Origin: a virus
Lineage: Duplodnaviria > Caudoviricetes
Virus record (IMG/VR): IMGVR_UViG_3300028888_000127
Coordinates: 3,964 to 67,963 of that record
DNA: 64,000 bases
Reading direction: 5' to 3' (one strand)
Shown: in pieces, positions 4,742 to 29,174 of the stretch
Numbering within the stretch: position 1 is the first letter of the stretch
Layout of the letters: each line of letters opens with the position of its first letter
Position numbers and translations under genes: made by a program
The notes under the pieces: generated by a model
Told to the model about the DNA's origin: nothing
Databases searched by the model: none
The model's input: only the letters and a program-made list of their open reading frames with translations

Positions 4742-6427
4742 TTATCTTTCGTTTTTCCAAACATATTTTATTAATCCGCAGTCATATATTTTATAATAGC
4801 CCAATTTTTCAGTCATTTCAGATTCTGTCATTGATAATTGGAAACCATATTTTTTGTGAAGTATTTGCTTTCTTAAATTAAATTTATGAACTCTTTTTTG
4901 CGTGAAATTTATGTTAACATATCTGTAATCAGGCGGAAGAATTTTAATTAGTTTAAATCCTATTTTTGTATATACATTGTTTTCATAATTAATCGTCCAT
5001 CTTCTATCAGCAAATGATTTAACTTCTTTTGGATTAAATATTTTTAAAAAATGCTTAAATAATTTACCGCCAACTCCACAGCAAACATAGTTATAATTTG
5101 TTGCAAATCTAATTAATTCCCATTCGTTATTGTTGTTTACTTTTTTAAATTGCATAACACCGACTAATTTATTTTCAAAAAAAGCTCCATAACTTACTGT
5201 AGAATTGCCATACCCTTGAATATGATATTCTGTTAAAAAGCATTTTGCTTCTTGTTTTGTAATCTCTTTTATTTCACAATTTCTTGCATATATTTTTTCT
5301 TTATTATTATTTAAGCCTAATATATGCTTTAATTTTTCTTTTACGATTTTATCATGGTATAGCCATTCATCTTCGAAAATATGTAATAGGTCTATCCCTT
5401 TATCTTTACATTGTTCAGTTTTAAGCAAATGATAATTTTTATCTTTGTTAAATAACTCAGAGTGCCATCTAATACCATCAAATTCTATAGCTATTTTTTT
5501 TTCAGGTATATATATGTCTAATTCTTTTGGCTTAATAACATTTCTGTTTCTTGTTTCAATTTTTCCTGTATATATTTCTTTTAAAAAACTTATAAGTTCT
5601 TCTTCCCCTGTTGATTTTGAATGCCCACATATTTGGCATCCACTGCCATGAATATGTGCATCTGGCGTTTGTAAAAATTCTCCATGTTTAGGACAAATTA
5701 TTGTTATATTGGATTTAGAATTAATATAGTTAACTTTTGAATAATCATACTTATCTCCATGTATTTCTTTTGCCTTTTTAACAAAATCATCAAGTTTCAT
5801 TGTCTCTGCAAAAGAAGCGTTAATTCTTCCACATTTAGGACATCCACATTTTAAATTATTATGTGCATATGGAGTTTGCCAAAACTCGCCATGCTCAGGA
5901 CATATGATGCAAACTTTAGTATTTGCATTAACATATTCTGTTTTTGAGTAGTCATATTTGTTTCCATGAACTTCTTTTGCTTTTTCTATAAAATCTTCTT
6001 TTTTAAATGAAAATAAAATCCTTTTTTTATTTGAAAAGCATTTTGGACAGCCATTACCATTTAAATGAGCATATGGTGCTTGACAAAATTCTCCATGTTC
6101 AGGACAAATTATACAGACTTTAGTCCTATTGTTTACATATTTCACTCTTGAATAATCATATTTTTCACCGTGTACTTTTTTTGCTTTTTCTATAAAATCT
6201 TCTTTATTATTTTTTTTTGCATTATTTGATTTTATATGGCCACATTTAGGACATCCACATTTTAAATTGTTATGCACATATGGAGTTTGCCAAAATTCAC
6301 CGTGCTCAGGACAAATTATACAAACTTTAGTATCACAATTTTTATAAATTACTTTTGAATAATCATATCTATTATTGTGAATTTCTTTTGCTTTATTAAT
6401 AAAAAATATATTTTTATTTTTTTCCAT
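4742..6427 (-). CDS. free-standing Hef-like homing endonuclease (4 Zn repeats, Vsr/PD-(D/E)XK nuclease, Mom-like GNAT domain)
   Basis: 4 x KAKxxHxxKYDYS...CPxHGEF..GCxxC; LDIYIPEKKIAIEFDGIRWHSE...HIFEDEW; IYARNC...ELIRF...SFADRRW...YTKIGF. Confidence 0.85.
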   Translation of the reverse strand: MEKNKNIFFINKAKEIHNNRYDYSKVIYKNCDTKVCIICPEHGEFWQTPYVHNNLKCGCPKCGHIKSNNAKKNNKEDFIEKAKKVHGEKYDYSRVKYVNNRTKVCIICPEHGEFCQAPYAHLNGNGCPKCFSNKKRILFSFKKEDFIEKAKEVHGNKYDYSKTEYVNANTKVCIICPEHGEFWQTPYAHNNLKCGCPKCGRINASFAETMKLDDFVKKAKEIHGDKYDYSKVNYINSKSNITIICPKHGEFLQTPDAHIHGSGCQICGHSKSTGEEELISFLKEIYTGKIETRNRNVIKPKELDIYIPEKKIAIEFDGIRWHSELFNKDKNYHLLKTEQCKDKGIDLLHIFEDEWLYHDKIVKEKLKHILGLNNNKEKIYARNCEIKEITKQEAKCFLTEYHIQGYGNSTVSYGAFFENKLVGVMQFKKVNNNNEWELIRFATNYNYVCCGVGGKLFKHFLKIFNPKEVKSFADRRWTINYENNVYTKIGFKLIKILPPDYRYVNINFTQKRVHKFNLRKQILHKKYGFQLSMTESEMTEKLGYYKIYDCGLIKYVWKNER

Positions 6428-6439
6428 TTTCGTTTTTTT

Positions 6440-6449
6440 TATAAATAGT
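6440..6449 (-). promoter_or_regulatory. putative late promoter ACTATTTATA
   Basis: Lies 13 nt upstream of the ATG at 6427. Confidence 0.6.
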
Positions 6450-6490
6450 TTATAATCCTAAATTATTAAACATTTTACCATCAAATCAAA

Positions 6491-8167
6491 TTATCTTTTG
6501 TTTTTCCAAATATATTTTAAAGTTCCGCAATCATATATTCTATACCACCCATTGTTTTCACAAAATTGTTTTTCTGTCATATTTTTAGGACATCCATATT
6601 TTTCAACTAAAATATTTTTCCTTAATGAAAATCTATTAATTCGTTTTTTATTTATAACATAAAAATAACTTGGTTCTGTTGTTCCATAAAATTCAAATCC
6701 AATGGCTTCATATAAGTTTCCATTCGACCATCTTCTATCGGCAAAAGTTTCAATTTTTAAAGGATTGTATTTTTCAATAAAATATTTAATCAATTTACTT
6801 GCTGCACCAATAACATTAAAATCTATCTTGTTACAAAATCGAATGAGTTCATAAGTGTTGTCTTCATTTTTTCTTGAAATGTTTATTCTTTTTTTGCCAA
6901 AAGTCATCAATGAAACTAATTCATCTTTATAATAAAGTCCAATTCTTATTTTTGACGGTACGTATCCTTGTAAATGATTTGTTTGTAAAAATAATTTACT
7001 GTCACTTAATGACACTTCTTTTATTTCACAATTCCTTGCGTATATTTTTTCGCTTGTTAAATGTAATATATTTCTTATTCTACTTTTGCAAATTTCATTT
7101 TTATACTTCCATTCATCTTCGAAAATATGAATTAGAGTAACATTTTTTTCTGCGCATTTTTCCGTTTTTAATAAATGATAATTTTTATTGTTTTCAAATT
7201 TTTCAGAATGCCAAATCAACCCATTCATTTCAAAGCCAATTTTATGCTTTGGTACATAGACATCTATTTCTTTTCCGTCTAATATGCTCCTATCATTTTC
7301 TACGATGGTTTCGTTTGGTAATATTTCTTGTATAAACTCTAACAATTCTTTTTCCACAAAAGATTTATCTTTAAAGCATTTAGGACAGCCTTCGCCAAAA
7401 ATATGGTTTCTTGCTATTTGCGAAAATTCTCCATGAATAGGGCAAATTATAGTAACATTATTTTTACTGTTAGTATAATCAACTTTGGAATAATCATATT
7501 TATTACCATGTGTTATTTTTGCCTTTTCAATAAATTCTTCTGTTGTTAATGTTTTCTCTCCTGAAGTTTTTTCATGCCCACAAATAGGACACCCTTGTTT
7601 CCCTTTTATGTGGTTGTTGAATGTTTGATAAAAAACTCCATGTTGTTTACATATAATAGGATATTTTTCTCTATCATTTTTATATTCAGTAATTAACGAA
7701 TAATCATATTTATTTCCGTGAATTTCTTTAGCCAGAGAAATGACATCTTCAAGGCTTCTTCTTTTACCATTTGCTGATTTTATATATCTACACTTTGGGC
7801 AGCCTTCACCGGAAAGCAAATGTCCTGGCACTATTTCGAAATCTCCATGGTCTTTACATGTAACAACTATTTTTGTCTTATTGTTTATATATTCAACTTT
7901 GTCAAATGAATAATTAGAGCAATGTTCCAATTTTGATACTTTCTCTATGAATCTTTTTGTGTCATATCTGCCTTTATTACTACAGAATGGACATCCTTGT
8001 TTCCTACTTATGTGGTGTTCAAAATCCTTATAAAAAACGCCATGCTCTTTGCATATTATAGGGTTTTTTATTTTCATTCCTCTATATTCATTAATCAATG
8101 AATAATCATAAGCATTGTTATGAATTTCATTTGATTTTGTAATTAAATCGTTTAATTTGTTTTCCAT
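6491..8167 (-). CDS. second Hef-like homing endonuclease (same architecture)
   Basis: 4 Zn repeats; IDVYVPKHKIGFEMNGLIWHSE...HIFEDEW; YELIRFCNK...TFADRRWSNGNLYEAIGF. Confidence 0.85.
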   Translation of the reverse strand: MENKLNDLITKSNEIHNNAYDYSLINEYRGMKIKNPIICKEHGVFYKDFEHHISRKQGCPFCSNKGRYDTKRFIEKVSKLEHCSNYSFDKVEYINNKTKIVVTCKDHGDFEIVPGHLLSGEGCPKCRYIKSANGKRRSLEDVISLAKEIHGNKYDYSLITEYKNDREKYPIICKQHGVFYQTFNNHIKGKQGCPICGHEKTSGEKTLTTEEFIEKAKITHGNKYDYSKVDYTNSKNNVTIICPIHGEFSQIARNHIFGEGCPKCFKDKSFVEKELLEFIQEILPNETIVENDRSILDGKEIDVYVPKHKIGFEMNGLIWHSEKFENNKNYHLLKTEKCAEKNVTLIHIFEDEWKYKNEICKSRIRNILHLTSEKIYARNCEIKEVSLSDSKLFLQTNHLQGYVPSKIRIGLYYKDELVSLMTFGKKRINISRKNEDNTYELIRFCNKIDFNVIGAASKLIKYFIEKYNPLKIETFADRRWSNGNLYEAIGFEFYGTTEPSYFYVINKKRINRFSLRKNILVEKYGCPKNMTEKQFCENNGWYRIYDCGTLKYIWKNKR

Positions 8168-8215
8168 AGCATTATTTATATATAAATATCCAAATAATCC
8201 AAAAAAGCAATTATT

Positions 8216-8785
8216 TTATTGTACATTTTTTAGAAATTGTAATCCGGCTAAACATGTTTTTGAAAATTTTACGTTTTCATCATAATTTTCCATGAAAATT
8301 TTATAAAAAAGTTTTTTATATGATTCTGAATAATTAAGTACTTTTTGTGGAACCCTATCTATTTCTCCTTTTGCAAGTGCAATTGCAGACTCATGGATAT
8401 ATTTTCCTTGGCTCGCAAGATATCTTATATTAGGAAAATCTATTTTTCCGTTAAAATATTCAAGTTTAGTATTGTCTGTTATTTCAGAAGGCTTGATTTT
8501 TTCTTTATTTGAATCAAACAGGCTATGGTCTTCTGTGACTTCAACAAACATTTCTCCATCTGAAATTTCATAAATATCCTTATCCGTTTTATGCCTATAA
8601 ATATAAGATGGCTCTACCCATCCACTTCTACATAATACATAATATGGTTTTTCCCCATAATCGTATTCACGGCCTAATTCATCAATGCTAATTTGACTTT
8701 CATCAATAAGTTCACATATAGGAACAATGTCAATAAGCCCTGTTTCTTTGTACTTAATAAACAACGGCGTATCTTCTGTAAAAGA
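8216..8785 (-). mobile_element. split intein, IntN (189 aa)
   Basis: Block A SFTEDTPLFIK and block B VEVTEDHSLF. There is no intein C-terminus before the stop codon. Confidence 0.9.
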
Positions 8786-10786
8786 ATCTCCAACAATTGG
8801 TTGATATCCAAGTTTTGTAAACCAATAAATCATTAGTCTAAGTGCCATTCTACCGGTACAAGTTGTTCTCTCAGCGCAAGCAATAGAAGCCCACGGAAAA
8901 ACATTAGGTGCACCATAAGAACCAAAAAATGAATTGCCAAAAATTTTCAGAGGTAACTGTTTTTTATCATTTGCAGATTCCTCTTGTGCAGCATCCAACA
9001 TTTTCCTGTTAAGTTCGTCTTTTAAATGTAAATCCGAACAAGATTCTATTTCTTTTTTATATTTGTCTTTTTCTTTACCTGCTTTTTTCTTTAAATCTTT
9101 ATATTTTTCACGCTGTGTTAAAACGTGTTCCAAGAAATAAAGCATAGAATGAAGCAAATCTTTTGCATCAGTGATACCCCAAGTAAGAATTATTGATGGA
9201 TAAAGTGAATTATAGTCAAATTTTGCAACATTGTCAACGAATCCAACTTTAAGAAGACGTGAAAGTCCACCTGTGAAAGTTTTTCTTTCTGAAAATTGAG
9301 GGATTGCCAAGTTGTTTTCATAACTCCAAGCAAGCATAATTGATTTCCACTGGCCAGCTGTACCCATTGTACAGCACTTGTCAAATGGAACAGGAATCAT
9401 TTTACAAATAAGGAAGTTTGGTGTGTTGTAACGATGTTCCACCATGTCACATTCCCACAAGTCATCAAGCAAATATTTTTGTCCTATATATTTTCCGTCA
9501 ACAACTTTATATCCTTCCAAAAGTTTGTTCTTTGTGTAAAGGACAAAAGTTGGGTTGTCTTTTCCTTTTTTCAATAATAGTTCTTCACTTTCACAAGAAT
9601 GATTTTCATCATATATATACCAATCACCTGTTTCATCGTTAATTGCAAATTTCCTATCATTATCATTCCAAATGTCTGAAATTTTATCACCCGGTATGTA
9701 AACACGGTTTTCTTTAATCAAATCTGAATACTTACTAACATACTTCAAATTTGAGAAAAGCATATTTGAATCCAATGCTTGTGCTCTTCTAACAGCATGC
9801 AAAGAATCGGTGATTATTATATTTGGAACAATAGTTTTATTGAATTTTTCAATTTCGCCACCTAATTTCAAAATTGACTCACGTTCATCTTTTCTGATTG
9901 ACTCTCCATTGAAAAATTTCTTTGATAGTTCTTCAAGAGAAGTTCCAAGTCTTTCACAAGCGCCAATAATTAACTGCCAGTCAAATGCCTCTCCATTATG
10001 TGCAGTAATTACATCGGGCCTAAAAGTATAAATTATTTTTAAAAATGTTATAATGCCATTTAATTCTGAAATATTTTTTTCTTCTTCAGTATTACCTTCA
10101 ACATTAATTAATTTTTCAAATTTAATATATTCCCCTTTATATTTTACAGGGCGATTAAATCTTATACCAAACTGTTCTATTCTATCCTTTTTTGTGTTAA
10201 GACCAGTTGATTCCAAGTCGAATATAAGTCTTAAAATATCATTATAATCCTCATACCCCTTAAAGAACCTCTTTCCTGTTGAAATCATGAATTGCTCTTT
10301 GGGCGTAACAGTTAAATACTGTTTTTCTTCATTTTTTTGGGTTCCACCTTTGTCATCTTTCTTTTTTCTACTCGAAACAGGATTTCCTGCTTTTTTGAAA
10401 AAGTCCAAAAAGTCAGAATAACTCATCGGTACTGTTGCATAGAACAAATATGTATATCCATTCTTAATTTCTTCTACAACTTCACCATCAGAATTTGTCA
10501 CATCAAGTGCCTTAACCCATATTCTATATTTTTTTAGCAGATATCTTACTTTTTGTTTATCACCATCACATAGCCTTTTGCAAGCCTTTTCTGTCGCCCA
10601 CAAAAACGGCATAAATGGTTCTTGAGAAACACATTTGTCATCGTTTTCGTTTCTGTAAAATACTGTTATGAAATTATTTTGATATTTGTAATCAAGGTTT
10701 ACAATTCTTTCTTGTTCGTCTCTACCATTTAAAAACGTACTGATTACTTCAGGAGTAATCTCTTTTTTAATAAAATTTTGCCCCAT
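8216..10786 (-). CDS. polB: family B DNA polymerase N-terminal subunit (3'-5' exonuclease, motifs A and B) fused to split intein N-half
   Basis: ExoI LIFDLESTG, ExoII AHNGEAFD, motif A KFDYNSLYPSII, motif B KIFGNSFFGSYG, then YQPIVGD|SFTEDTP (intein start). Confidence 0.93.
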   Translation of the reverse strand: MGQNFIKKEITPEVISTFLNGRDEQERIVNLDYKYQNNFITVFYRNENDDKCVSQEPFMPFLWATEKACKRLCDGDKQKVRYLLKKYRIWVKALDVTNSDGEVVEEIKNGYTYLFYATVPMSYSDFLDFFKKAGNPVSSRKKKDDKGGTQKNEEKQYLTVTPKEQFMISTGKRFFKGYEDYNDILRLIFDLESTGLNTKKDRIEQFGIRFNRPVKYKGEYIKFEKLINVEGNTEEEKNISELNGIITFLKIIYTFRPDVITAHNGEAFDWQLIIGACERLGTSLEELSKKFFNGESIRKDERESILKLGGEIEKFNKTIVPNIIITDSLHAVRRAQALDSNMLFSNLKYVSKYSDLIKENRVYIPGDKISDIWNDNDRKFAINDETGDWYIYDENHSCESEELLLKKGKDNPTFVLYTKNKLLEGYKVVDGKYIGQKYLLDDLWECDMVEHRYNTPNFLICKMIPVPFDKCCTMGTAGQWKSIMLAWSYENNLAIPQFSERKTFTGGLSRLLKVGFVDNVAKFDYNSLYPSIILTWGITDAKDLLHSMLYFLEHVLTQREKYKDLKKKAGKEKDKYKKEIESCSDLHLKDELNRKMLDAAQEESANDKKQLPLKIFGNSFFGSYGAPNVFPWASIACAERTTCTGRMALRLMIYWFTKLGYQPIVGDSFTEDTPLFIKYKETGLIDIVPICELIDESQISIDELGREYDYGEKPYYVLCRSGWVEPSYIYRHKTDKDIYEISDGEMFVEVTEDHSLFDSNKEKIKPSEITDNTKLEYFNGKIDFPNIRYLASQGKYIHESAIALAKGEIDRVPQKVLNYSESYKKLFYKIFMENYDENVKFSKTCLAGLQFLKNVQ

Positions 10787-10837
10787 TTGAAATAGCCAAA
10801 TCCCTTGGCATGCTTATTCGCTGTTATTTTTATACTA

Positions 10838-11353
10838 TTATAGTACATTAATCATATAGTCCCTTACCCTTCCAAGGACTTTTCCTAAAAGATTTTTACC
10901 TTTCCAATTTGATTCATCGTCTATAATTGGGTTATTCCATTCAATACCGCAACCCCATATAAAATCATATTTAGAACCTTCAACAAAAGTCTTATCTAAC
11001 AAGTCTCGTCTTGTAATCAATCGTGCCAAATATTCATTTTGGCAAAATTTTGCAAGTACAACATTATACATTATGTCTTCGCAAACCTCAGACCATTGTT
11101 CTGAATTAAAATTTTTAACTTGCCTACCCAATTCCTTTGCCTCTTTTGGCGTTTTTGCCTTTAAGATAAGTTCTGCAATTTCATTGTCTTTGAAAAACAA
11201 CGCTTTTTCATACATAAACGCTTGTTCAGAAGATTTAAATTCAATTCCTAAATATGTAAACTTGCATCCATGAAAGTTTGAGAATTCAGAACCCCAAAAC
11301 GCAACGTGATTGTCATAAACAATAAAACCGTCTCTTTCAAAATTTTGTCCCAT
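10838..11353 (-). CDS. NADAR family protein (YbiA/DUF1768-like ADP-ribosylhydrolase)
   Basis: FSNFH...FKSSEQAFMYEKA...PKEAKELGR...EGSKYDFIWGCG...GKNLLGKVL. Confidence 0.88.
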   Translation of the reverse strand: MGQNFERDGFIVYDNHVAFWGSEFSNFHGCKFTYLGIEFKSSEQAFMYEKALFFKDNEIAELILKAKTPKEAKELGRQVKNFNSEQWSEVCEDIMYNVVLAKFCQNEYLARLITRRDLLDKTFVEGSKYDFIWGCGIEWNNPIIDDESNWKGKNLLGKVLGRVRDYMINVL

Positions 11354-11389
11354 AATTAAAATTTTATTTTTTACATATTTTACAAAAAA

Positions 11390-11788: not shown

Positions 11789-11803
11789 TTTTAAAATTAT
11801 TAA

Positions 11804-13163: not shown

Positions 13164-13173
13164 ATAAAATCCA

Positions 13174-14020: not shown

Positions 14021-14980
14021 TTATTTTTTAATTATCTTCATTAAAAATTCTTTTATTAATTTAATATCATATGTGTTATTTTCGTTATAAATTTCTTCAT
14101 TTTTATTACTATAGTTTTTATTAATTATATACAAAATTCTTATTCCATTATTTTCACATAGTTTCTTTTTGTTTTTATCTCTTTCTACTATAGTTTCCAA
14201 ATCTTCCCATAATTTTGAGCCAATAAAATGTTGTTTTCCTTGACACTCAATTGCTGTTTTATAGTCTGGTAAATAAAAATCTAAACTTAGTTTTCCTAAA
14301 AAATCAAATCGTTGTTGCTCTGTAAAATTAATGTTTAATTCTTGTAATATCATTCTAATTCTTTTTTCTAATACTGAATTACATTTACATTTTGGACATC
14401 CTTCTCCTTTTAAATGATTATGTGGCAACTGTTTAAAATCTCCGTGAATTTGGCATGTAATTATTACATTTTCTTTACTGTTTTTATATATTGTTTTTTC
14501 GTAGTTATATAAATCCCCATGTATTTTTCTTGCACGTTCTATAAATTTATTAGTATTCAAGCATAAATTATGAGTTGAATATCCAAATGTTAAATGATTG
14601 TTTGGAGTTTGCCAAAACTCTCCAATTTCAACGCCATATGCATCTTTTTCATGTGATATTATGCATACTTTTTCATTACTTTTAACATAATTAACTTTTG
14701 AATAGTCAAATTTATTGCCATACTTTTTGATGGCTTTTTTTATAAAACTTTCAGTATTCTCTCTTAAATTTTTGCCTTCTTTTATCCATCCGCATTTATG
14801 GCATCCATATTTTCTACATAAATGGTCATTTGGCTTCATCCAAAATTCTCCATGCTCAGGACATATTATGCAAACTTTTGTTTTTGTGTTTACATATTCA
14901 ACTTTAGAATAATCATATTTATCACCATGGATATCTTTTGCTTTCTTAATAAATTCAGAATTTGTTAATTTTTTAGGCAT
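14021..14980 (-). CDS. Zn-repeat Vsr/DUF559-like homing endonuclease (no GNAT domain)
   Basis: 3 KAKxIHGDKYDYS..CPxHGEF repeats; LSLDFYLPDYKTAIECQGKQH...DKNKKKLCENNGIRIL. Confidence 0.8.
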   Translation of the reverse strand: MPKKLTNSEFIKKAKDIHGDKYDYSKVEYVNTKTKVCIICPEHGEFWMKPNDHLCRKYGCHKCGWIKEGKNLRENTESFIKKAIKKYGNKFDYSKVNYVKSNEKVCIISHEKDAYGVEIGEFWQTPNNHLTFGYSTHNLCLNTNKFIERARKIHGDLYNYEKTIYKNSKENVIITCQIHGDFKQLPHNHLKGEGCPKCKCNSVLEKRIRMILQELNINFTEQQRFDFLGKLSLDFYLPDYKTAIECQGKQHFIGSKLWEDLETIVERDKNKKKLCENNGIRILYIINKNYSNKNEEIYNENNTYDIKLIKEFLMKIIKK

Positions 14981-15027: not shown

Positions 15028-18000
15028 TCATTTATTTTTTTCATTTTCTTTTTTTATTATTTGATTTATTGTCAGTTCTTTTTTCATAACAGTATTCCAT
15101 ATCTTTTCATATTGTGTTCCTCTGAAAATTTGATAATATATATCAACATCTTTTTTTTGGCCTATGCGGAAAATTCTATCTTCCATCTGTTTATTGGAAC
15201 TTGGTACATAATCAATATCATTGAATATAAGTTTGTTTGAAACAACCAAATTAAGGCCGACTCCAGCGGCAAACAATTGCCCAATGAAAACCATTTTGTC
15301 AGGATTTGTTAAAAATGCTTCTTTTGCAGCATCTTTTTGCTTTGGATTTAATTTTCCGTTGAAAATAACACATTTATCGCCATAATAATCCCTTAACGTA
15401 TATAATTCTTCGTCATAACAAGTTGCAATAATAACTTTGTCACCGTTTTTTATGAACTCGTCAGTAAGTTTTATGGTATTTGGAATCATTTGATTGGAAC
15501 AATACTTTCTATAAACAGCACCTTCTAATAAATCCTTGTTTATTTCTTTTGTTGGGTCCAATTCGAGTTGTGCAGCCTCATATTCTTCCCAAAGACGTGC
15601 ATATTCAAACTCTTGCTTCATATCGAAATCATAGAATAGTTCGTGTATTGTCTTATTTGGCAATCCTTCGGCAATATCTTCTTTTGTACGTCTCAAATAT
15701 ATGTGAGATACTTTAAGTTTTAACTCTTCAAGGTTAGTCGGGTCTTTTAAAATTGTTATTTTCCTTGCATTTGCATTAATGTATTCCTTTAACTCATCCT
15801 TTTCCTTAGATGTTAGTTCTCCCCAACATGTCGGCGCAACTTTTCCTGCATTTCCATACTCACGTTTTTTCTTTTCAAAGAAAAACTTGGACCATTTTTC
15901 CTTTTCTCCTTTTGCTGGTATTTTCATCGCGCCGCAATATCTTTCCATGTAATAATTCCAATCATTTGTAATGTCTTCATTTAGAAGTTTCAATAAACAA
16001 TAGAAATTTGCAGGATTATTGGTAATAGGTGTCCCTGTTGCAAGGTATATGCTATGTGGATTTCCACGTTTTATGAAATCGCTTATTATTTTGTACCTAT
16101 CTGATGTTGAATTGGACAGCCTATGTGCTTCGTCAATTATCAAAAGTGTCTTTTTATTCATTGCATATTGAAGCATAGGGCTTTCATCATATGCTTTTTT
16201 TATGTTTTCAGCACTTCTTGTCCTTGGAATCTTGTAAAATTCATCAAGAATATCAAAATTGACAATAACAAACCTATTATCTTCCCATTTTCCACGATTT
16301 TTCGCTTCTTCAAGCAATTGTTCTCTTTTAAGTCCTGATTTGCCAACGCCATATCCAAGCAATTTTTCTAATTCAGGCTTTGTTTTGTCGTTAACTCCAT
16401 CAATAATTGATATATCCTTTTCAGGAACATACCAAAGTAACTCATCACGCCAATTTGTCTTTAAAGAAGCGGGACAAATTATCAATACAGAGTCGAAATT
16501 TCCTTCAATTGCAGCAACAGACAGTTCGGTGGTATTATGTGTAACTATGTAATTTTTACCCGTCAAATAAGTATGTTCATCATAATCAACCATAATACAT
16601 CTTGCATCCTCGTTTCTATCATATTCTGCTGATACAATATATTTAGAGCAATATTTTAAATATGCAGGATGGTATTTTTCTGATTTTCTTGTTAAATAAA
16701 ACGGATTTTCTTTTATTTGTATTCTTACTTGATATTCTGTATTTTTTTTGTTTTTATGATTATATTTTCCAATTCTTGCAATTCCTCCAAGCGAAAAAAC
16801 AAGTTCAGCGACATCATTTGCTAATTTTTCTGAATTTGTGGAAAAAGATATTCTGTTGTTTTTTCCAATTGTACCATCTGAATCCATTAAGCCTCTTAAT
16901 AAATCTAAGCGTTGTGAAATTGAGCCAAGTTTATATTCGGTTGGGATAAATTTATAATTTCCTTTTACATTTAGCCCTAATCTTTTTATTTCAGATATAT
17001 AATCATTCCTAAACTTTCTAACTTTATGCATTATTCTATATCTTGGACAATTTGTGCTTCTGTCTTCTTTTAGAATCATATCTTCTCTAAGCAATGCTTC
17101 AATTCTATTTGCTGTTTCTTTTTCATTATCAGGTATTGAAATATTTATTCCGTTATTACACAAATTTCCATCTCCAATGCACATTCCTAATATATATGGA
17201 TGAATTAAATAGTCTTTTTCTTTATATTGGACTGGTAATGTAACCGGTATTTCATACTTGTTTCTTGGATTTAACCCAATTTTTACCCTACTTTCATCTG
17301 TATATTGTAATTTTGATTCTATTAGTTCTTTTAATGACATAGTTTTCCAACCCTGTTTCCTTTTTGTCATATTTTTAGTCCTAACTTTCCACAAATGGTC
17401 AAGGCCGCAATAAGAAAAAGTACCATCACTAAATGTTATTTTATAGATTTCTTTATCTTTATGTTCGAATATTTTTGTTATTGGGTATAAATTGCCATCT
17501 TCACCAAAGACCATATCACCAAGTTTTAATTCTCCAAAAGTCTTAAATCCATTTTCTGTTGGAATTAATGATGATATTGGCTCCATTTTTCCTAATCCCA
17601 TGTCATCTGCTAAAATACACTTTTTCCTATGCAAAAGGAATTGAACTGCTTCTTTTTGGTGAGGTTTAAGTATTCTGTTTGGGTCTTTTTCTGTTGATAA
17701 GTTGTCATAACGGTCAAAATCCACTTGAACAGAGTGATAATCTCCAATCAAGAAGTTTCCAAGTACTGCTTTCTTTGGTAAAAAAATCTCCATCGTTTCC
17801 ATATTTTGCCTATATTTGATAGTGCAATGGAAAGCAACTGATGTTTCCCCAAAATATGTGTAAATTCTTATCTTTTGAGGAATAAATTCTAATTCATAGT
17901 CGTTTTTAAGTTTTTCGCCATACCAGTCAGCAATTGAAACGTTCTTGTTTATCTGAATTGGTGAAAAATTATGGTTTTTCTTTATATACTCAACCACGTA

Positions 18001-18129
18001 TTCATTAAGCAAATCCGTTTTTCTGCATAAAATAATGTCTCTTTTAAGCCTTAAAAGGTACGGATTAGGACCATTGTAACTGTTTAGTATGTCTATTGCT
18101 TCATTTTTTCCTTTTATCGTGTTAAACAT
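15028..18129 (-). CDS. SNF2-family helicase/ATPase containing an intein
   Basis: LKPHQKEAV, ILADDMGLGK|TT, IICPASL, IIDEAH, LATGTP, GVGLNL, QMEDRIFRIGQ. Confidence 0.93.
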   Translation of the reverse strand: MFNTIKGKNEAIDILNSYNGPNPYLLRLKRDIILCRKTDLLNEYVVEYIKKNHNFSPIQINKNVSIADWYGEKLKNDYELEFIPQKIRIYTYFGETSVAFHCTIKYRQNMETMEIFLPKKAVLGNFLIGDYHSVQVDFDRYDNLSTEKDPNRILKPHQKEAVQFLLHRKKCILADDMGLGKMEPISSLIPTENGFKTFGELKLGDMVFGEDGNLYPITKIFEHKDKEIYKITFSDGTFSYCGLDHLWKVRTKNMTKRKQGWKTMSLKELIESKLQYTDESRVKIGLNPRNKYEIPVTLPVQYKEKDYLIHPYILGMCIGDGNLCNNGINISIPDNEKETANRIEALLREDMILKEDRSTNCPRYRIMHKVRKFRNDYISEIKRLGLNVKGNYKFIPTEYKLGSISQRLDLLRGLMDSDGTIGKNNRISFSTNSEKLANDVAELVFSLGGIARIGKYNHKNKKNTEYQVRIQIKENPFYLTRKSEKYHPAYLKYCSKYIVSAEYDRNEDARCIMVDYDEHTYLTGKNYIVTHNTTELSVAAIEGNFDSVLIICPASLKTNWRDELLWYVPEKDISIIDGVNDKTKPELEKLLGYGVGKSGLKREQLLEEAKNRGKWEDNRFVIVNFDILDEFYKIPRTRSAENIKKAYDESPMLQYAMNKKTLLIIDEAHRLSNSTSDRYKIISDFIKRGNPHSIYLATGTPITNNPANFYCLLKLLNEDITNDWNYYMERYCGAMKIPAKGEKEKWSKFFFEKKKREYGNAGKVAPTCWGELTSKEKDELKEYINANARKITILKDPTNLEELKLKVSHIYLRRTKEDIAEGLPNKTIHELFYDFDMKQEFEYARLWEEYEAAQLELDPTKEINKDLLEGAVYRKYCSNQMIPNTIKLTDEFIKNGDKVIIATCYDEELYTLRDYYGDKCVIFNGKLNPKQKDAAKEAFLTNPDKMVFIGQLFAAGVGLNLVVSNKLIFNDIDYVPSSNKQMEDRIFRIGQKKDVDIYYQIFRGTQYEKIWNTVMKKELTINQIIKKENEKNK
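16534..17586 (-). mobile_element. 351 aa intein with LAGLIDADG endonuclease in Walker A (class 3, WCT type)
   Basis: GLGK|MEPISSLIPTENG...DHLW...ILGMCIGDG...LLRGLMDSDG...ARCIMVD...IVTHN|TT. Confidence 0.93.
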
Positions 18130-23071: not shown

Positions 23072-23095
23072 AATTGTTTAAATGATAATTATTAT

Positions 23096-23126
23096 AAAGT
23101 CAGTCAGAAATGGCTGACTTTTTTTT
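23096..23126 (+). terminator. intrinsic terminator, repeat family A
   Basis: AAAGTCAGTCAGAAATGGCTGACTTTTTTTT; two mismatches to the 1832 copy. Confidence 0.85.
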
Positions 23127-23179
23127 GTTTTAATTTAATATTTATTGTATGATAAAGTTAAAATAAATGTTATTCAACC

Positions 23180-24954
23180 ATGAGAAAACTTACAAAAGAA
23201 CAGTTTATTGAAAAAGCAATAGAAATACACGGCAACAAATATGATTACTCGAAAGTAAATTATGTTGATGCGAAAACAAAGGTTTGCATTGTTTGCCCAG
23301 AACATGGTGATTTTTTGCAATTACCATATAATCATTTGAATGGGAACGGATGTCCTTCTTGCGTAAGACATAAATGGGATACAGATAGTTTCATAAAGAA
23401 AGCCATGGAGGTACATGGTGACAAGTATGATTATTCAAAGACTGAATTTAAGTCAACAAGAGAAAAAGTTTGTATAATATGCCACGAGCATGGTGAATTT
23501 TGGCAATATCCGTTATCACATTTGAATGGAATGGGATGTGGAAAAGAAAGTAGGGGAATAAGGGAAAATTGCTGGGAAAACAGGAAATGCCCTGTATGCG
23601 GAAAAATATTCAAAGAGCGTAAGAAATATAAGAAAATATGTTGTTCCGAAGAATGCCGCAAAATATATGTCAAAGAACATATGGATGAAATAAACAGAAA
23701 GCGTTCAGAATCATTAAAAGAAACTTTTTCAAAAAAGACGAAATTCGATTACGAGAAAGCATACGAAAAGAAAAAGAAACTTGCATTGAAAGGTATGGCG
23801 TTGCTAATTTCTCAAAAACAGAAATGGGACGCGAAATATCAAGAAAAAACATGACAAAGTTAAGAAGGGAAAATGTCGAAACGATTAAAAATGAAATTTT
23901 GATTCCGAAATATAAGGAATTGTGTGAAAATGATGGCTTGGAACTATTGGAATTTAGGAACCGATTTGATTGTACTGTAATGTGCAAAAAATGCGGAAAC
24001 ATATTTGTGACAAGAACACTTGGCTATTTAACTGAAAAAGACACGACAAAAAGATGTAAAATATGTAACCCATATTTGGTTGTCCCAAATAAAAACAATG
24101 AAATTGAGAATGATTTTTCAAAGTTTCTTGAAGAATGTAATGTTAAATTTTATCGTAATTATAGGGGAATAATATCGTCAATGGAGATTGATTTTTATTT
24201 GCCTGACTATAAAATTGGATTTGAAATTGATGGTATATATTGGCATTCAGAAGTATATAAAAACAAAATGTACCATAAGGAAAAAACAAATAAATATCAA
24301 GAAAATGGGGTTATGCTGATTCATATTTTCGAGGATGAATGGTGTTTCAAGAAGGAAATATGCAAATCAAGGATAAAAAGCATATTAAATATGACGGAAA
24401 CGAAATTATATGCAAGAAACTGTGATATAAGAACCGCTGATAAAAAAAGTGCAATAAAGTTTTTGGAAGAAAACCATATACAGGGAAATACGGTTTTTAA
24501 ATATGCTTACGGATTATATTATGAAAATGAATTGGTATCTTTAATGACATTTGGCTCGCTTAGGAAAAATTTGGGGCAAAAAAGCAAGGAAGGACATTAT
24601 GAAATGCTAAGGTTTTGCAATAAAATTGGGCATAATGTTGTTGGCGGTGCAAGTAAACTATTAAAGCGTTTTATTAATGAAAAGAGCCCTAAACAAATAA
24701 TATCATATTCAGACAATAGATGGTCAACGGGAAATTTGTATGACAAATTAGGGTTTACGTTAGAACGAGAGACGGACCCAAATTATTATTATGTTATTGG
24801 AAATAAGAGAATTAATAGATATTCATTACGAAAAAACATTCTTGTTGAAAAGTATGGATGCCCAAAAGAAATGAGCGAACATGATTTTTGCATTAGTAAA
24901 AGATGGTATAGGATATATGATTGTGGAAACAAATTATGGTCAATAAATTTATAA
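23180..24954 (+). pseudogene. Hef-like endonuclease split across two frames (-1 shift near 23731-23780); pseudogene or programmed frameshift
   Basis: ORF 23180-23854 carries the Zn repeats. The -1 frame is open from 23689 and reads ETCIERYGVANFS, then the nuclease (EIDFYLP..FEIDGIYWHSE) and GNAT (SYSDNRWS) domains. Confidence 0.75.
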
Positions 24955-24987
24955 AAGGATTAAACTATTTATTGTAAAATAAATGCT

Positions 24988-25946: not shown

Positions 25947-25962
25947 TTTTATAGAAAAAAGT

Positions 25963-26898
25963 ATGAATGTTTTAGTTACTGGCGCAGAAGGACAACTTGG
26001 CAGGTGTATTGTTGATGTGTTCAAATATTTTGACAACGAAAACAAATATATTTTTATGCCAAGAGAACTTTTTGATTTAACAAATAAAGAGCAAATGCAT
26101 GAGCAGTTTGAAATGTTTAATCCTAATATTGTTGTAAATTGTGCTGCATATACAAATGTAGAAAAAGCTGAAGAAAATTCAATTGATACAATTAGCGTTA
26201 ATTATCTTGGAGTTGGGGATTTAGTAAAACTATGTGAAACTTATGGTGTGTATTTAATTCATATTTCAAGTGATTATGTTTTTAATGGAAAGTCAAGTAA
26301 ACCATACAAAGAAGATTCAAATGTAAACCCATTAAATATTTATGGGGTTTCTAAGGTAGGTGGAGACAATTTTGTTGTCGGATACAACAGAGGAATTGTT
26401 TTAAGGACTTCTTGGCTTTATTCTGAATATGGGCATAATTTCTATAGAACTATGATTGAACGAATAAAGGAGCAAAAAGAAACAAACGTAGTTAATGACC
26501 AAATAGGAACGCCAACATATGCAAAAGATTTGGCTTTGTTTATAGTAAGAGATTTGATTGCTTCAAATAAATATAAAGAAGTTAGAGGCATTTACAATTT
26601 TTCAAATAATGGAATTGCTTCTTGGTATGATTTTGCTTCAATGATAGAAACATTCTATCAAAATTTCGGTCCATATGAGCCAATGATAAAAGACCCTGTT
26701 GATATTAAATTTGAAGTAAGTCCATATCCTAAAAAATACATAAGTCCAACAACAAAAAAATATAAGACAAAAGCAAAAAGGCCAATGTATTCAGTTCTTG
26801 ACAAAACAAAAGTTGAAAATGAATTTGGAATTAAGATTCCGCATTGGACTGAATCATTATTGAAGTGTATGAAAAACGATGGAAAAATAAAAGGCTGA
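25963..26898 (+). CDS. rfbD: dTDP-4-dehydrorhamnose reductase
   Basis: MNVLVTGAEGQLG, NCAAYTNVEKAE, ISSDYVF, YGVSK, LRTSWLY, DQIGTPT, RPMYSVLD. Confidence 0.93.
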   Translation: MNVLVTGAEGQLGRCIVDVFKYFDNENKYIFMPRELFDLTNKEQMHEQFEMFNPNIVVNCAAYTNVEKAEENSIDTISVNYLGVGDLVKLCETYGVYLIHISSDYVFNGKSSKPYKEDSNVNPLNIYGVSKVGGDNFVVGYNRGIVLRTSWLYSEYGHNFYRTMIERIKEQKETNVVNDQIGTPTYAKDLALFIVRDLIASNKYKEVRGIYNFSNNGIASWYDFASMIETFYQNFGPYEPMIKDPVDIKFEVSPYPKKYISPTTKKYKTKAKRPMYSVLDKTKVENEFGIKIPHWTESLLKCMKNDGKIKG

Positions 26899-26916
26899 TT
26901 GTTAGTCAGCCTTTTT
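26889..26916. terminator. bidirectional terminator; direct repeat with 27500-27527
   Basis: AAAAGGCTGATTGTTAGTCAGCCTTTTT. Confidence 0.85.
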
Positions 26917-26944
26917 ACATATATAATGGTGTTTTTAATCCTTG

Positions 26945-27277
26945 TTAAAAGTTTTCAAGTATTTCTTCAAATACTCTTCTTCTTTCTGGTTTACTAAGAT
27001 TTAGTTCTTCTGCATACTTATCGGTATTTGGGTTCCCTGACCAAATCTGAACTATCCCATCATCAGTAAGATGAATGTAGTCAACTAAACTGCCATTAGC
27101 CACAATTCTGAATTTTGAAACACTAATTGTATTTGTACCAAATTCCTCAAATAGTTCATAGATATCAGAATATCCATTCTCTTTCAATAATCTCGTTTCC
27201 TTTAGTACTTTCTTTACACTTTCAGCAACAATCTTCTTAAGTTGTTGCTCATTTAATTTTATTATATTCTTTTTCAT
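26945..27277 (-). CDS. conserved-leader protein 3
   Basis: MKKNIIKLNEQQLKKIVAESVKKVLKE leader; promoter motif at 27379-27388. Confidence 0.85.
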   Translation of the reverse strand: MKKNIIKLNEQQLKKIVAESVKKVLKETRLLKENGYSDIYELFEEFGTNTISVSKFRIVANGSLVDYIHLTDDGIVQIWSGNPNTDKYAEELNLSKPERRRVFEEILENF

Positions 27278-27499
27278 ATTCTTGTTTATTTTTGATTCTT
27301 TTGTTATTCCTTCATCAATAAAGATAATAGAAATGTTGATACAATGAGACGGTTCTATTAAACGTTATCTACTTTTATTATAAATAGTTTATCTTTGTGA
27401 AAAAGATGAAATATGTACAAGAAATTAGCTGACTTAAATACTGTTGTGATATTATTTGTTGCCAATATATTGAAACAACAAGTATATTATCCCAAAAAC

Positions 27500-27527
27500 A
27501 AAAGGCTGATTGCTAGTCAGCCTTTTT
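27500..27527. terminator. terminator; direct repeat with 26889-26916
   Basis: AAAAGGCTGATTGCTAGTCAGCCTTTTT (1 mismatch). Confidence 0.85.
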
Positions 27528-29174
27528 CCATATATACCTGATTAAGCCACAGTCGTATATCTTTTCGTACCCAAGTTGCTTCGTCATTTCTGATTCTGTC
27601 ATTGATAACGGTAATCCATATTTATGGTTTAGCAGTTTTTTTCTAAAGCCAAACTTATGCTGCCTTTTGATTCCATCGGAAGGGCTGAAGTATTTGTAAT
27701 CCGGCTCTGTATATCCGTCAAATACAAACCCAAGTTTTGTATAGACATTTGATTCTTCGTTTATTGTCCATCTTCTGTCTGCAAAGGATTTAATAACGTC
27801 AGGGCCGTATTCCCTTACGAAATATTTGAAAAGTTTACCACCAACACCTTGGCAAATGTAATTGTAATCACTTGCAAATCTAACCAATTCCCATCTATTG
27901 CTTTCTTTTGTTTCTTTTTTGAATGACATTACTGCTATTAGCAAATCGTTAAAAAATGCCCCAATGCTAATCGTAGAAGGACCATATCCTTGTATATGGT
28001 ATTTGTTAAGGAAACTTTTAGCCAAACCATTGTCAATTTCCTTTATTTCACATTTTCTTCCCATTATCTTTGGAAGGTTTTCGCTAACACCAACCAAATG
28101 CTTTATCTTGTTTAGCACAATATCCTTGCTGTTTACGTATTCGTCTTCGAAAATCTGGATTAGTTTTACCCCCTTTTCTTTACAAGCATTTAGTTTTTTT
28201 AAATGGTTGCTTTTTTCTATGTTTGAATGCCAAAAAAGGCCATTATATTCAATCCCAATTTTTAATGACGGAACATAAATATCTATTTCTTTTGGAGGAA
28301 TTAGTTTTCTTTCGCTTTGTATTACATTTTCTTTTCCAATTAATGATGTAATATAATCAAAAATTTCAGATTCTGCTTTTGATATATGATGAACACACTT
28401 TGGGCATCCGTTTCCGTCAAGATGCCTCCATGGAGCTTGCCAAAATTCGCCGTGTTTTGGGCATATTATGCAAACTTTGTTTTTTCCCGTAACATATTCA
28501 GTTTTTGAATAATCATATTTGTTATTATGTATTTTGTTTGATTTTTCAATGAAATCTTCAGTTGTTAATCTTTTTGACAAACCAAGTTCTTCATGGGCAC
28601 ATTTTTTACAAGATGAACCTTTAAGATGCAAATATGGCAATTGATAAAATTCTCCATGTTTAGGGCAAATTATACAAACTTTTGTAAGCATATCAATGTA
28701 TTCTGTTTTTGAATAGTCATATTTACAATTATGAACTTTATTTGCCTCTTGTACAAAAGTTTCCGTTGTGTATTTTTTATTCTTATGGATTGATTTCGAA
28801 CATATAGGACAACCTTTTCCTTTTAAATGGTTATGTGGGTCTTGAAAAAATTCGCCGTGTTCTGGGCATATTATACAAACTTTTGTGTGGCTATTAACAT
28901 ATTCAACTTTTGAGTAGTCATATCTATCCCCATGTATTTGCTTTGCTTTTTCAATGAACGAGTTATTAGAGCTCTTCATTGTTTTTGAACAGAATGGGCA
29001 TCCTTGTCCAATTAAATGTTTATCTGGCCTTTGAGAAAATTTTCCATGTTTTTTACAAATTATTGTTATGTTAGTTTTATTGTTTGTATAAGATACTTTT
29101 GAATAGTCATATCTATCTCCATGTATCTGTTTTGCTTTTTCTATAAAAGTTTTTGTTGTATTTTTTTTACTCAT
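27513..29174 (-). CDS. Hef-like homing endonuclease (4 Zn repeats, nuclease, Mom-like GNAT)
   Basis: EIDIYVPSLKIGIEYNGLFWHS...QIFEDE; WELVRFAS...KSFADRRW...YTKLGF. Confidence 0.85.
   Translation of the reverse strand: MSKKNTTKTFIEKAKQIHGDRYDYSKVSYTNNKTNITIICKKHGKFSQRPDKHLIGQGCPFCSKTMKSSNNSFIEKAKQIHGDRYDYSKVEYVNSHTKVCIICPEHGEFFQDPHNHLKGKGCPICSKSIHKNKKYTTETFVQEANKVHNCKYDYSKTEYIDMLTKVCIICPKHGEFYQLPYLHLKGSSCKKCAHEELGLSKRLTTEDFIEKSNKIHNNKYDYSKTEYVTGKNKVCIICPKHGEFWQAPWRHLDGNGCPKCVHHISKAESEIFDYITSLIGKENVIQSERKLIPPKEIDIYVPSLKIGIEYNGLFWHSNIEKSNHLKKLNACKEKGVKLIQIFEDEYVNSKDIVLNKIKHLVGVSENLPKIMGRKCEIKEIDNGLAKSFLNKYHIQGYGPSTISIGAFFNDLLIAVMSFKKETKESNRWELVRFASDYNYICQGVGGKLFKYFVREYGPDVIKSFADRRWTINEESNVYTKLGFVFDGYTEPDYKYFSPSDGIKRQHKFGFRKKLLNHKYGLPLSMTESEMTKQLGYEKIYDCGLIRYIWKKAD

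What the first reader, a model, noticed from the sequence alone, without database searches (positions are those of the whole stretch)
4742..29174. Four endonucleases fused to a Mom-like GNAT domain: possible single-gene restriction-modification parasites
Seen: ORFs 4742-6427, 6491-8167, 23180-24954 and 27513-29174 all end in a ~190-aa domain, ARxC...HxQG...ELxRF...GGxKL...S(F/Y)(A/S)DxRW...YxxxGF. The paralogue at 14021-14980 lacks it. Known: T4-type Hef endonucleases have this architecture, and phage Mu Mom is a GNAT-fold adenine-modifying enzyme with an ELxR...SFAD...VY pattern (recalled, not searched). Inference: the nuclease cuts unmodified rival DNA while the GNAT domain modifies or senses the phage's own sites, or the four copies together hypermodify the genome against host restriction.
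Basis: partly seen in the sequence, partly recalled or inferred. Interest (0 to 1): 0.7.

Follow-up and report, generated by a model that had tools for sequence, protein, structure and literature searches.

The report
Hef-type homing endonucleases with Mom-like domain
Four selfish DNA-cutting "homing endonuclease" genes of an uncultured sheep/goat-gut giant phage each end in a true relative of phage Mu's DNA-modifying enzyme Mom. This gene design and the cut-and-protect idea are already published, and nobody has yet tested what the Mom-like part does.

Summary
Four genes (4742-6427, 6491-8167 and 27513-29174 on the minus strand, 23180-24954 on the plus strand) share one design: a zinc-module array, an EDxHD/Vsr-like nuclease, and a ~195-aa C-terminal domain. 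The fourth is split by a frameshift in this contig, but three other assemblies carry an extra A that restores one ORF.

The C-terminal domain belongs to the Mom lineage of GNATs:
- Pfam Mom scores 30.5 bits for one copy.
- Profile-profile comparison with canonical Mom gives E 8e-6.
- The Mom crystal structure 8BV8 is the top Foldseek hit for two models.

Equivalents of Mom H58, E108, R111 and Y159 are near-invariant in 354 relatives. Two of the four copies here have Gly at Mom's essential Ser124.

Genomic behaviour is that of mobile homing endonuclease genes. Two copies lie between the halves of a probable split intein in PolB motif C. A close relative (208 kb) has empty sites and no Mom-like domain.

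The fusion and the protect-and-restrict reading are in print (Iyer et al. 2021, PMC7824862). This scan has noted the same fusion 193 times in at least 133 other genomes. The role of the Mom-like domain is untested. I favour a local act on target-site DNA over genome-wide protection. Verdict: a new member of a known kind, of modest interest.

The parts
6491..8167 (-). Hef-type homing endonuclease gene, copy B (558 aa). It has four C-x2-H...C-x2-C zinc modules, a nuclease at 7091-7384 and a Mom-like domain at 6494-7090. All equivalents of the Mom-essential residues are present (R84, S98, D118, R120 in domain numbering).
   Evidence: (Pfam Mom 30.5 bits, cut-off 27.1)
4742..6427 (-). Hef-type homing endonuclease gene, copy A (561 aa), in tandem with copy B. 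Nuclease at 5345-5626, Mom-like domain at 4745-5344. The equivalent of Mom Ser124 is Gly (GVGGKL).
   Evidence: (Pfam Mom 21.3 bits, GNAT PF00583 24 bits)
27513..29174 (-). Hef-type homing endonuclease gene, copy D (553 aa), directly downstream of the tail tube gene. Nuclease at 28119-28412, Mom-like domain at 27516-28118. The Ser124 equivalent is Gly. A 97%-identical orthologue sits at the same site in relative G001, and the site is empty in G002. dN/dS of the Mom-like part is 0.13.
23180..24954 (+). Hef-type homing endonuclease gene, copy C, directly downstream of the tail sheath gene. It is split in the window by a 1-nt deletion in the A-run 23777-23779 and is intact in three other assemblies. 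Nuclease at 24076-24360, Mom-like domain at 24361-24951, with all Mom-essential equivalents present.
   Evidence: (Pfam Mom 24.7 bits)
14021..14980 (-). Paralogous free-standing endonuclease (319 aa) downstream of the helicase gene. It shares the zinc-module array, has a different nuclease subtype and has no Mom-like domain.
8219..8782 (-). Probable N-terminal half of a split intein (188 aa, starting Ser-Phe-Thr-Glu-Asp-Thr). It is fused in frame to PolB residues 1-668 (8783-10786). A stop follows, then 48 nt, then copy B.
   Evidence: TIGR01445 E 0.07, starting at residue 1 of the insert; arrangement as in PMC2677866
4614..4715 (-). Probable C-terminal half of the split intein (34 aa, ending Ser-Asn, followed by Thr+1). 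It is fused to the rest of PolB and starts 26 nt after copy A.

Best explanation
These are four free-standing Hef-type homing endonuclease genes of an uncultured ruminant-gut jumbo phage.

Shown:
- Each protein has an N-terminal array of small zinc modules (DUF723/DUF4379 type).
- Each has an EDxHD/Vsr-like nuclease of the I-Bth0305I kind.
- Each has a tightly attached C-terminal domain homologous to phage Mu Mom.
- The genes sit at classic homing sites: inside a probable split intein in the PolB catalytic motif, after the tail sheath gene and after the tail tube gene. These sites are empty or differently occupied in close relatives.

Inferred:
- The zinc array reads a long target.
- The nuclease cuts the HEG-less allele, and recombinational repair copies the gene in.
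- The Mom-like domain acts locally on target DNA as part of one rigid nuclease-Mom unit. It flips a base, probably an adenine.
- In copies with the full catalytic set (6491-8167 and 23180-24954) it transfers an acyl or aminoacyl group to that base, marking or protecting the site.
- The two Ser-to-Gly copies probably keep the base-binding or DNA-clamping role only.

My odds: Hef-type homing endonuclease with a true Mom-family domain 0.9; domain catalytically active on DNA in the intact copies about 0.45; domain acting locally rather than genome-wide about 0.7.
For: Identity:
- Full-length matches to PHROG 559 and 3339, E 1e-95 to 1e-157.
- The nuclease profile hits PDB 3R3P (I-Bth0305I) at E 1.4e-8. 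E39, D41, E52, H59, E89 and D90 are near-invariant in 90 sequences.
- Pfam Mom scores above its cut-off for one copy, and many relatives carry precomputed PF25680 hits.
- hhalign against 46 canonical Mom proteins gives E 7.8e-6 and 84% probability.
- Foldseek's top hit is Mom 8BV8 for two independent models, E 1.3e-8 and 1.5e-8 against >=2e-6 for other GNATs.
- In VIA-align, Mom has the longest aligned stretch (148 residues) and the highest identity (21%).

Selection on the domain:
- In 354 distinct domains, R84 (Mom R111) is kept in 354, H39 (H58) in 353, Y127 (Y159) in 353 and E81 (E108) in 352.
- S98 (S124) is kept in 85% and D118 (D149) in 89%.
- dN/dS is 0.13 for the Mom-like part of copy D against its G001 orthologue.

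Tight coupling of the two domains:
- The nuclease subtype occurs in 405 phage records and the Mom-like domain in 412, with the same host tallies.
- Three apparent stand-alone Mom-like ORFs are truncated or frameshifted fusions.
- The two-domain model has pLDDT 95.7 and pTM 0.91.

Mobility:
- PolB is contiguous (1163 aa) in L003 and L004 and interrupted here.
- G002 has empty sheath, tube and PolB sites and no Mom-like domain in 208 kb. G001 has a different set of copies.
Against: - No cleavage, homing or modification was or could be measured.
- 163 of 354 family members (46%) lack at least one residue that is essential in Mom. R151 is replaced in 31% and S124 in 15%. Two of the four copies here have Gly for Ser124, and S124A kills Mom (PMC13219725). 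The conserved role may therefore not be Mom-type catalysis.
- Mom's dimer residue W48 is not conserved.
- NCBIfam's Mom model gives no hit at E <= 1.
- A gene whose insertion disrupts its own target, as in the PolB copies, has no obvious need for protective modification.
- The sample of 354 domains is biased towards relatives of copy B.
Confidence: 0.55

Rival explanations
1. Single-chain restriction-modification-like system, as in the published reading. The Mom-like domain modifies adenines across the phage genome. The nuclease then destroys unmodified host or superinfecting-phage DNA.
For: - This is proposed in print for jumbo-phage Mom-REase fusions (PMC7824862).
- Most Mom active-site equivalents are conserved.
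- Several copies with different zinc arrays occur per genome.
- I-Bth0305I tolerates many target substitutions (abstract of PMC3239194).
Against: - The genes sit at homing-type sites, including between probable split-intein halves in a catalytic motif.
- Those sites are empty in a close relative that has no copy in 208 kb.
- Half of the copies here lack Ser124.
- In a mixed infection a diffusible modifier would also protect the rival genome.
Confidence: 0.2
2. The Mom-like domain has lost catalysis. It serves as a DNA-binding, base-flipping or clamping module, or as an assembly module, that positions the Vsr-like nuclease.
For: - 46% of 354 relatives lack at least one Mom-essential residue, while the pocket residues H39, E81, R84 and Y127 stay invariant.
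- The Ser-to-Gly copy D is still under purifying selection, dN/dS 0.13.
- The two-domain unit is predicted to be rigid, pTM 0.91.
- The fusion is obligate.
Against: - The GNAT motif-A glycine (G95, 353 of 354) and Ser (85%), which in GNATs and Mom serve the donor, are mostly kept.
- 54% keep the full Mom tetrad.
- The zinc array already provides a DNA-reading part.
Confidence: 0.3
3. The domain acylates something other than DNA, for example a tRNA as GNAT toxins do, or a host or phage protein. The substrate would be tied to the nuclease's activity or regulation.
For: - Mom binds tRNA, and related GNATs (TacT, FemX) act on or with tRNA (PMC13219725).
Against: - Sequence and 3Di evidence place it specifically with Mom.
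- It is permanently fused to a DNA nuclease.
- The helical insert that Mom needs for DNA work has a counterpart in the models.
Confidence: 0.07

Closest known systems
Jumbo-phage Mom-REase fusions described by Iyer, Anantharaman, Krishnan, Burroughs and Aravind 2021 (Viruses 13:63, PMC7824862); e.g. five copies in Pseudomonas phage PA5oct
   Same: Same domain pairing, a Mom-family GNAT fused to a restriction-endonuclease-fold nuclease, with several copies per jumbo phage. PA5oct has 5 places matching both domains.
   Different: That paper reads them as protect-and-restrict systems. The loci here behave as mobile homing genes, with empty sites in relatives and a position inside a probable split intein. 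Two copies here lack the Ser124 equivalent.
Hef of T-even phage U5 and annotated 'Hef-like' free-standing homing endonucleases (F-LimIII/VII/VIII/X of Dickeya phage LIMEstone1, Acinetobacter phage 133, Campylobacter CP81/CP220 types)
   Same: Full-length PHROG 559/3339 membership. The same nuclease and C-terminal domain are found under those annotations. The genes sit next to tail tube, tail sheath and DNA polymerase genes, as in LIMEstone1 (PMC3296691).
   Different: Identity is 30-56% only, and the zinc-module number differs. I could not read the U5 Hef sequence or paper, so its own architecture was not checked.
I-Bth0305I, prototype of the EDxHD (Vsr-like) homing endonuclease family (PDB 3R3P; PMC3239194)
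   Same: Homologous catalytic domain, E 1.4e-8, with the composite Glu/Asp/His/Asp residues kept.
   Different: I-Bth0305I is encoded in a group I intron, and its nuclease is the C-terminal domain. It has no Mom-like domain and a different DNA-binding part.
Phage Mu Mom (PDB 8BV8), a Gly-tRNA(Gly)-dependent N6-adenine modifying GNAT (PMC13219725)
   Same: GNAT fold with a helical insert before the last strands. Equivalents of H58, E108, R111, D149, R151 and Y159 are present in all four copies, and of S124 in two.
   Different: About 20% identity. The domain is fused rather than stand-alone. W48 of the Mom dimer interface and Y59 are not kept. There is no NCBIfam Mom hit. No activity is known.
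'Fractured genes' of Dassa et al. 2009 (PMC2677866): split intein halves with a free-standing Vsr-like endonuclease gene between them
   Same: N-extein plus IntN, then a 48-nt gap (27-51 nt in the paper), then the endonuclease gene, then IntC plus C-extein, all on one strand in a phage replication gene.
   Different: There are two tandem endonuclease genes instead of one. The host gene is PolB motif C. The endonucleases carry the extra Mom-like domain, which that paper does not mention.

Membership tests
Hef-type / EDxHD (Vsr-like) homing endonucleases | Vsr-like nuclease domain with the composite E-D...H...D catalytic residues | tested here: met
   Profile of the window's nuclease domains against PDB: 3R3P at E 1.4e-8. 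The motifs EIDxYxP, E..G..WH and FEDEW are present in all four copies. E39, D41, E52, H59, E89 and D90 are at least 90% conserved in 90 sequences.
Hef-type / EDxHD (Vsr-like) homing endonucleases | Gene inserted in or beside conserved essential genes, with presence/absence polymorphism among close relatives | tested here: met
   PolB is contiguous in L003 and L004 and interrupted here. The sheath and tube sites are empty in G002, the sheath site holds another endonuclease gene in G001, and the tube site holds a 97% orthologue in G001.
Hef-type / EDxHD (Vsr-like) homing endonucleases | Site-specific double-strand cleavage of the gene-less allele, and homing | not testable with these tools
   This needs cleavage assays or mixed infections.
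Mom family (Pfam PF25680) | Score at or above Pfam's gathering threshold (27.1 bits) | tested here: inconclusive
   With the domain scanned alone, copy B scores 30.5 bits and passes. Copies C, A and D score 24.7, 21.3 and 12.7 bits and fall below. Many close relatives carry precomputed PF25680 hits. hhalign against canonical Mom gives E 7.8e-6.
Mom family (Pfam PF25680) | GNAT fold closest to the Mom crystal structure | tested here: met
Mom family (Pfam PF25680) | Residues essential for momylation: R111, S124, D149, R151 | tested here: inconclusive
   All four residues are present in copies B and C. Copies A and D have Gly at S124. In the family, R111 is kept in 100%, S124 in 85%, D149 in 89% and R151 in 69%.
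Mom family (Pfam PF25680) | HTH-like helical insert between the last GNAT strands, required for Mom activity | tested here: inconclusive
   The models show three short helices (residues 153-179 of the domain) before the last hairpin. The sequence there does not align to Mom, since the hhalign alignment stops at about Mom residue 185.
Mom family (Pfam PF25680) | Mom-type dimer through W48 | tested here: not met
   The aligned position is Ser in copy B and mostly Lys in the family.
Mom family (NCBIfam 'Mom family adenine methylcarbamoylation protein') | Match to NCBI's curated model | tested here: not met
   No NCBIfam hit at E <= 1 for the isolated domains of copies B and C, and none for the whole proteins at E <= 0.01.
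Mom family | tRNA-dependent modification of N6 of adenine in double-stranded DNA | not testable with these tools
   This needs biochemistry, using the assay of PMC13219725.
Restriction-modification systems (single-chain type) | The modification blocks cleavage by the same protein at the same sites, so that self and non-self DNA are told apart | not testable with these tools
   Neither the target nor any modification is known. The genomic behaviour points to homing instead.
Fractured genes with split inteins (Dassa et al. 2009) | N-extein plus IntN, short spacer, free-standing endonuclease gene, IntC plus C-extein on one strand, with the host motif restored on joining | tested here: met
   The junctions read IVGD|S...(188 aa, stop) and ...SN|TDGFNF. 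Joining them restores the VGDTDG seen in L003 and L004. The spacer is 48 nt. The intein models are weak (TIGR01445 E 0.07), and splicing itself was not tested.

The most novel reading that the evidence does not exclude
The Mom-like domain of Hef-type homing endonucleases is an active, tRNA- or acyl-CoA-dependent transferase. It puts a bulky adduct on one adenine in the enzyme's own target. That would make these proteins single-chain 'cut-and-mark' selfish elements, with homing controlled by a site-specific DNA hypermodification. The Ser-less copies would act as readers or decoys.
Probability: 0.3. Interest if true: 0.7.

Novelty: new member of a known kind. Interest (0 to 1): 0.3.

Why it matters
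The family is very large. A profile of the domain finds 20,168 clusters at 50% identity, almost always at the C-terminus of 480-700-aa nucleases. It is present in 412 cultured-phage records, with up to a dozen copies per genome. Even so, I found no experimental report on the Mom-like half.

Mom's chemistry and structure were solved in 2026: Gly-tRNA as donor, and R111, S124, D149 and R151 essential. The question is therefore now directly testable with existing assays.

If the domain modifies DNA, homing endonucleases would join R-M systems as elements that pair cutting with base marking. If it does not, it is an example of an enzyme fold reused as a DNA-handling module. The genes in this window add nothing categorically new beyond two details: two of the four copies have Ser replaced by Gly, and two copies sit in tandem inside a probable split intein.

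Tried and rejected
- **Group I intron around the PolB endonuclease genes.** Rfam found nothing in the window or in L002 at gathering score, and nothing in 2500-11000 at E <= 1. The 4.2-kb insert is better explained as a split intein.
- **Stand-alone Mom-like genes of this clade.** P0100, P0023 and P0097 looked free-standing, but each has nuclease homology just upstream or a frame break. None of these three is truly stand-alone.
- **Sequence search of the PDB.** A four-sequence domain profile found only generic GNATs (best E 1e-3) and not Mom. A single-sequence hhalign against Mu Mom was weak, E 0.008. Only the two-profile comparison and the fold search were clear.
- **Promoter and terminator scan of 4300-8900.** Counts were at the level of shuffled sequence.
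- **IntN against the PDB by sequence.** No hit. Pfam gave no Hint or intein hit.
- **Literature.** Ten searches found no paper that links 'Hef' or 'Hef-like' with Mom by name. The published link was found only by reading Iyer et al. 2021 directly. Sandegren et al. 2005 (PMC1275590) is not held.
- **Decaying pseudogenes.** Rejected. The ORFs are intact, the one frameshift is absent from other assemblies, and dN/dS is 0.13-0.24.
- **Not run.** No complex prediction was run, because a dimer result would not separate the hypotheses.
- **Not tested.** I did not test this here.


Full report
**1. What is there**

The window is most of a 67,963-bp IMG/VR virus record that CheckV rates 19% complete, so it is a fragment of a jumbo phage. 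Near-identical DNA is held by sheep- and goat-gut metagenome runs.

ORFs 4742-6427(-), 6491-8167(-) and 27513-29174(-) are intact at 561, 558 and 553 aa. The fourth stretch, 23180-24954(+), is two overlapping ORFs in different frames in the window. Logan contigs of the probable source run and of two goat-gut runs from another study all have one more A after 23776, in the run 23777-23779. That A fuses the two frames. The gene is therefore intact in the population.

All four proteins end in a ~195-aa domain that aligns along its whole length, with 42-54% identity and 48 invariant columns. A profile of the domain finds exactly these four places in the record. The paralogue 14021-14980(-) has the same zinc-module array but a different nuclease subtype and no such domain.

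**2. The three parts of each protein**

*N-terminal array.* Copies A, B and D each have four C-x2-H...C-x2-C modules. Pfam reads them as DUF723 and DUF4379, the latter a probable treble-clef zinc finger.

*Nuclease.* The middle domain matches the catalytic domain of I-Bth0305I (PDB 3R3P) at E 1.4e-8. The motifs EIDxYxP, E..G..WH and FEDEW fit the composite 'EDxHD' signature that Taylor et al. describe (PMC3239194). These residues are at least 90% conserved in 90 sequences.

*Whole proteins.* They match PHROG 559 and 3339 end to end, with E-values down to 1e-157. In cultured phages the same proteins are annotated 'Hef-like homing endonuclease', and in a few Acinetobacter phages 'putative nuclease/acetyltransferase protein'.

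**3. Is the C-terminal domain Mom-like?**

Yes, on several independent lines of evidence.

- Scanned alone, copy B passes Pfam's Mom threshold (30.5 against 27.1 bits). Copies C, A and D score 24.7, 21.3 and 12.7 bits.
- Many close relatives carry precomputed PF25680 hits.
- A 43-sequence profile of the domain compared with 46 canonical Mom proteins gives E 7.8e-6 and 84% probability over 131 columns.
- An AlphaFold2 model of the domain (pLDDT 92) has the Mom crystal structure 8BV8 as its best Foldseek hit, E 1.3e-8. Ordinary GNATs start at 4e-6.
- A second model, built from a different and deeper alignment, gives the same top hit, E 1.5e-8.

The domain therefore belongs to the Mom lineage of the GNAT superfamily, but to a divergent branch.

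**4. Active-site residues**

Silva et al. 2026 (PMC13219725) showed that Mom takes glycine from Gly-tRNA(Gly). R111, S124, D149 and R151 are essential. H58, Y59, Y159 and W48 matter. An HTH-like insert is required.

| Mom residue | Domain equivalent | Kept in 354 distinct domains |
|---|---|---|
| H58 | H39 | 353 |
| E108 | E81 | 352 |
| R111 | R84 | 354 |
| S124 | S98 | 301 |
| D149 | D118 | 316 |
| R151 | R120 | 246 |
| Y159 | Y127 | 353 |

The mapping comes from the profile alignment and the counts. Only 191 of the 354 domains keep all four essential residues.

In this window copies B and C keep all four. Copies A and D have Gly for the Ser. Copy D is nevertheless under purifying selection: against its 97% orthologue in relative G001, dN/dS is 0.13 in the Mom-like part (14 synonymous and 8 non-synonymous changes), 0.24 in the nuclease and 0.16 in the zinc array.

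Mom's dimer residue W48 is not kept. The models show a helical insert before the last hairpin, in the place of Mom's insert.

**5. Coupling of nuclease and Mom-like domain**

- The profile finds 20,168 clusters (E <= 1e-3) among 1.84 billion representatives. In the best 150, the domain almost always ends a 480-700-aa protein.
- Among cultured phages, the nuclease subtype occurs in 405 records and 1012 places, and the Mom-like domain in 412 records and 981 places. The host tallies are nearly identical.
- Three apparent stand-alone Mom-like ORFs turned out to be truncated or frameshifted fusions.
- A model of nuclease plus Mom-like domain has pLDDT 95.7 and pTM 0.91, higher than the single domain's 0.82. 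This speaks for one rigid unit.

**6. Genomic behaviour**

Relatives with 88-98% identical PolB were fetched.

*PolB.* In L003 and L004, PolB is one 1163-aa ORF. In the window, residues 1-668 (10786-8783) run in frame into a 188-aa extension that begins with Ser at the motif ...IVGD|. Then come a stop, 48 nt, copy B, copy A, 26 nt, and a small ORF. That ORF's first 34 residues end ...Ser-Asn, followed by TDGFNF and the rest of PolB. This is the 'fractured gene' layout of Dassa et al. [quoted passage not shown] Here there are two genes in tandem. Support from intein models is weak (TIGR01445 E 0.07, aligned from residue 1), so I call it a probable split intein.

*Copy C.* It follows the tail sheath gene. 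That site is empty in G002 and holds a Mom-less endonuclease gene in G001.

*Copy D.* It follows the tail tube gene. G001 has the 97% orthologue there, and G002 has no endonuclease gene at the site.

*Copy number.* G002 (208 kb, 56% complete) has no Mom-like domain at all. G001 (303 kb) has four, partly at other sites.

This is the signature of mobile homing endonuclease genes, not of a core DNA-protection function.

**7. Mechanism**

Shown: the domain composition, the homologies, the conservation and the polymorphic insertion sites.

Inferred: the zinc array reads the target, the nuclease cuts the gene-less allele, and repair copies the gene in.

For the Mom-like domain I weigh three roles:

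- a local base modifier at the target, about 0.45 for the copies with the full residue set;
- a non-catalytic base-flipping, clamping or assembly module, about 0.3;
- a genome-wide protective modifier paired with a restriction-like nuclease, about 0.2.

The near-invariance of the pocket residues and the motif-A glycine argues for a ligand-binding pocket that still matters. The frequent loss of the Ser and of R151, both lethal for Mom, argues that Mom-type catalysis is not the universally conserved function. The empty sites, and a relative without any copy, argue against genome-wide protection.

**8. Novelty**

Iyer et al. [quoted passage not shown] They also state that momylation would protect phage DNA while the nuclease attacks host or superinfecting phage DNA, and they count five such enzymes in PA5oct (PMC7824862).

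Earlier notes of this scan report the same fusion 193 times in at least 133 genomes. Their hint about PA5oct led me to that paper, which I then read myself.

I found no experimental test of the Mom-like half. These four genes are new members of a known kind.

Noticed in passing
window 2806-10786 (-): The PolB gene is in pieces. Residues 1-668 plus a probable IntN (8219-8782) come first, then two endonuclease genes, then a probable IntC (4614-4715) plus the rest of PolB. Relatives L003 and L004 have one 1163-aa ORF. The intein would have Ser1, Thr+1 and a Ser-Asn end in place of the usual His-Asn.
   Followed up: partly
window 4091-4407 (-): A 317-nt insert without an ORF interrupts PolB between ...NKMGLGI and DEVVSAT.... 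The 28 conserved codons after it follow a stop and have no start codon, so they can only be read after removal of the insert. The upstream exon ends in U and the insert ends in G, as in group I introns. Rfam finds no intron, and the fold z-score is -2.06.
   Followed up: partly
window about 16534-17586 (-), inside the helicase gene 15028-18129: An in-frame insert of about 350 aa (residues 182-532) is absent from the helicases of G001 and G002. It carries a LAGLIDADG_3 domain (E 8e-13), so it is a contiguous intein with its own homing endonuclease.
   Followed up: partly
window 23777-23779: The window has AAA where Logan contigs of three runs have AAAA. This is a 1-nt deletion in the deposited contig that splits copy C.
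   Followed up: yes
L002 9029-10832 (relative G001): PolB of G001 is interrupted at a different point, after residue 676. The interruption is a 1.8-kb insert with one 490-aa Hef-type gene that carries a Mom-like domain. The PolB reading frame runs on into an extension of about 76 aa whose middle resembles the window's IntN start.
   Followed up: partly
L009 1643-2536 (G002) and L007 11147-12079 (G001): Mom-less endonuclease genes 44-47% identical to 14021-14980 occupy the helicase-downstream site in G002 and the sheath-downstream site in G001. Different endonuclease types therefore compete for the same slots.
   Followed up: partly
window 6491-7384 (-): The nuclease plus Mom-like domain is predicted as one compact unit (pLDDT 95.7, pTM 0.91) with a well-ordered helical linker.
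   Followed up: partly
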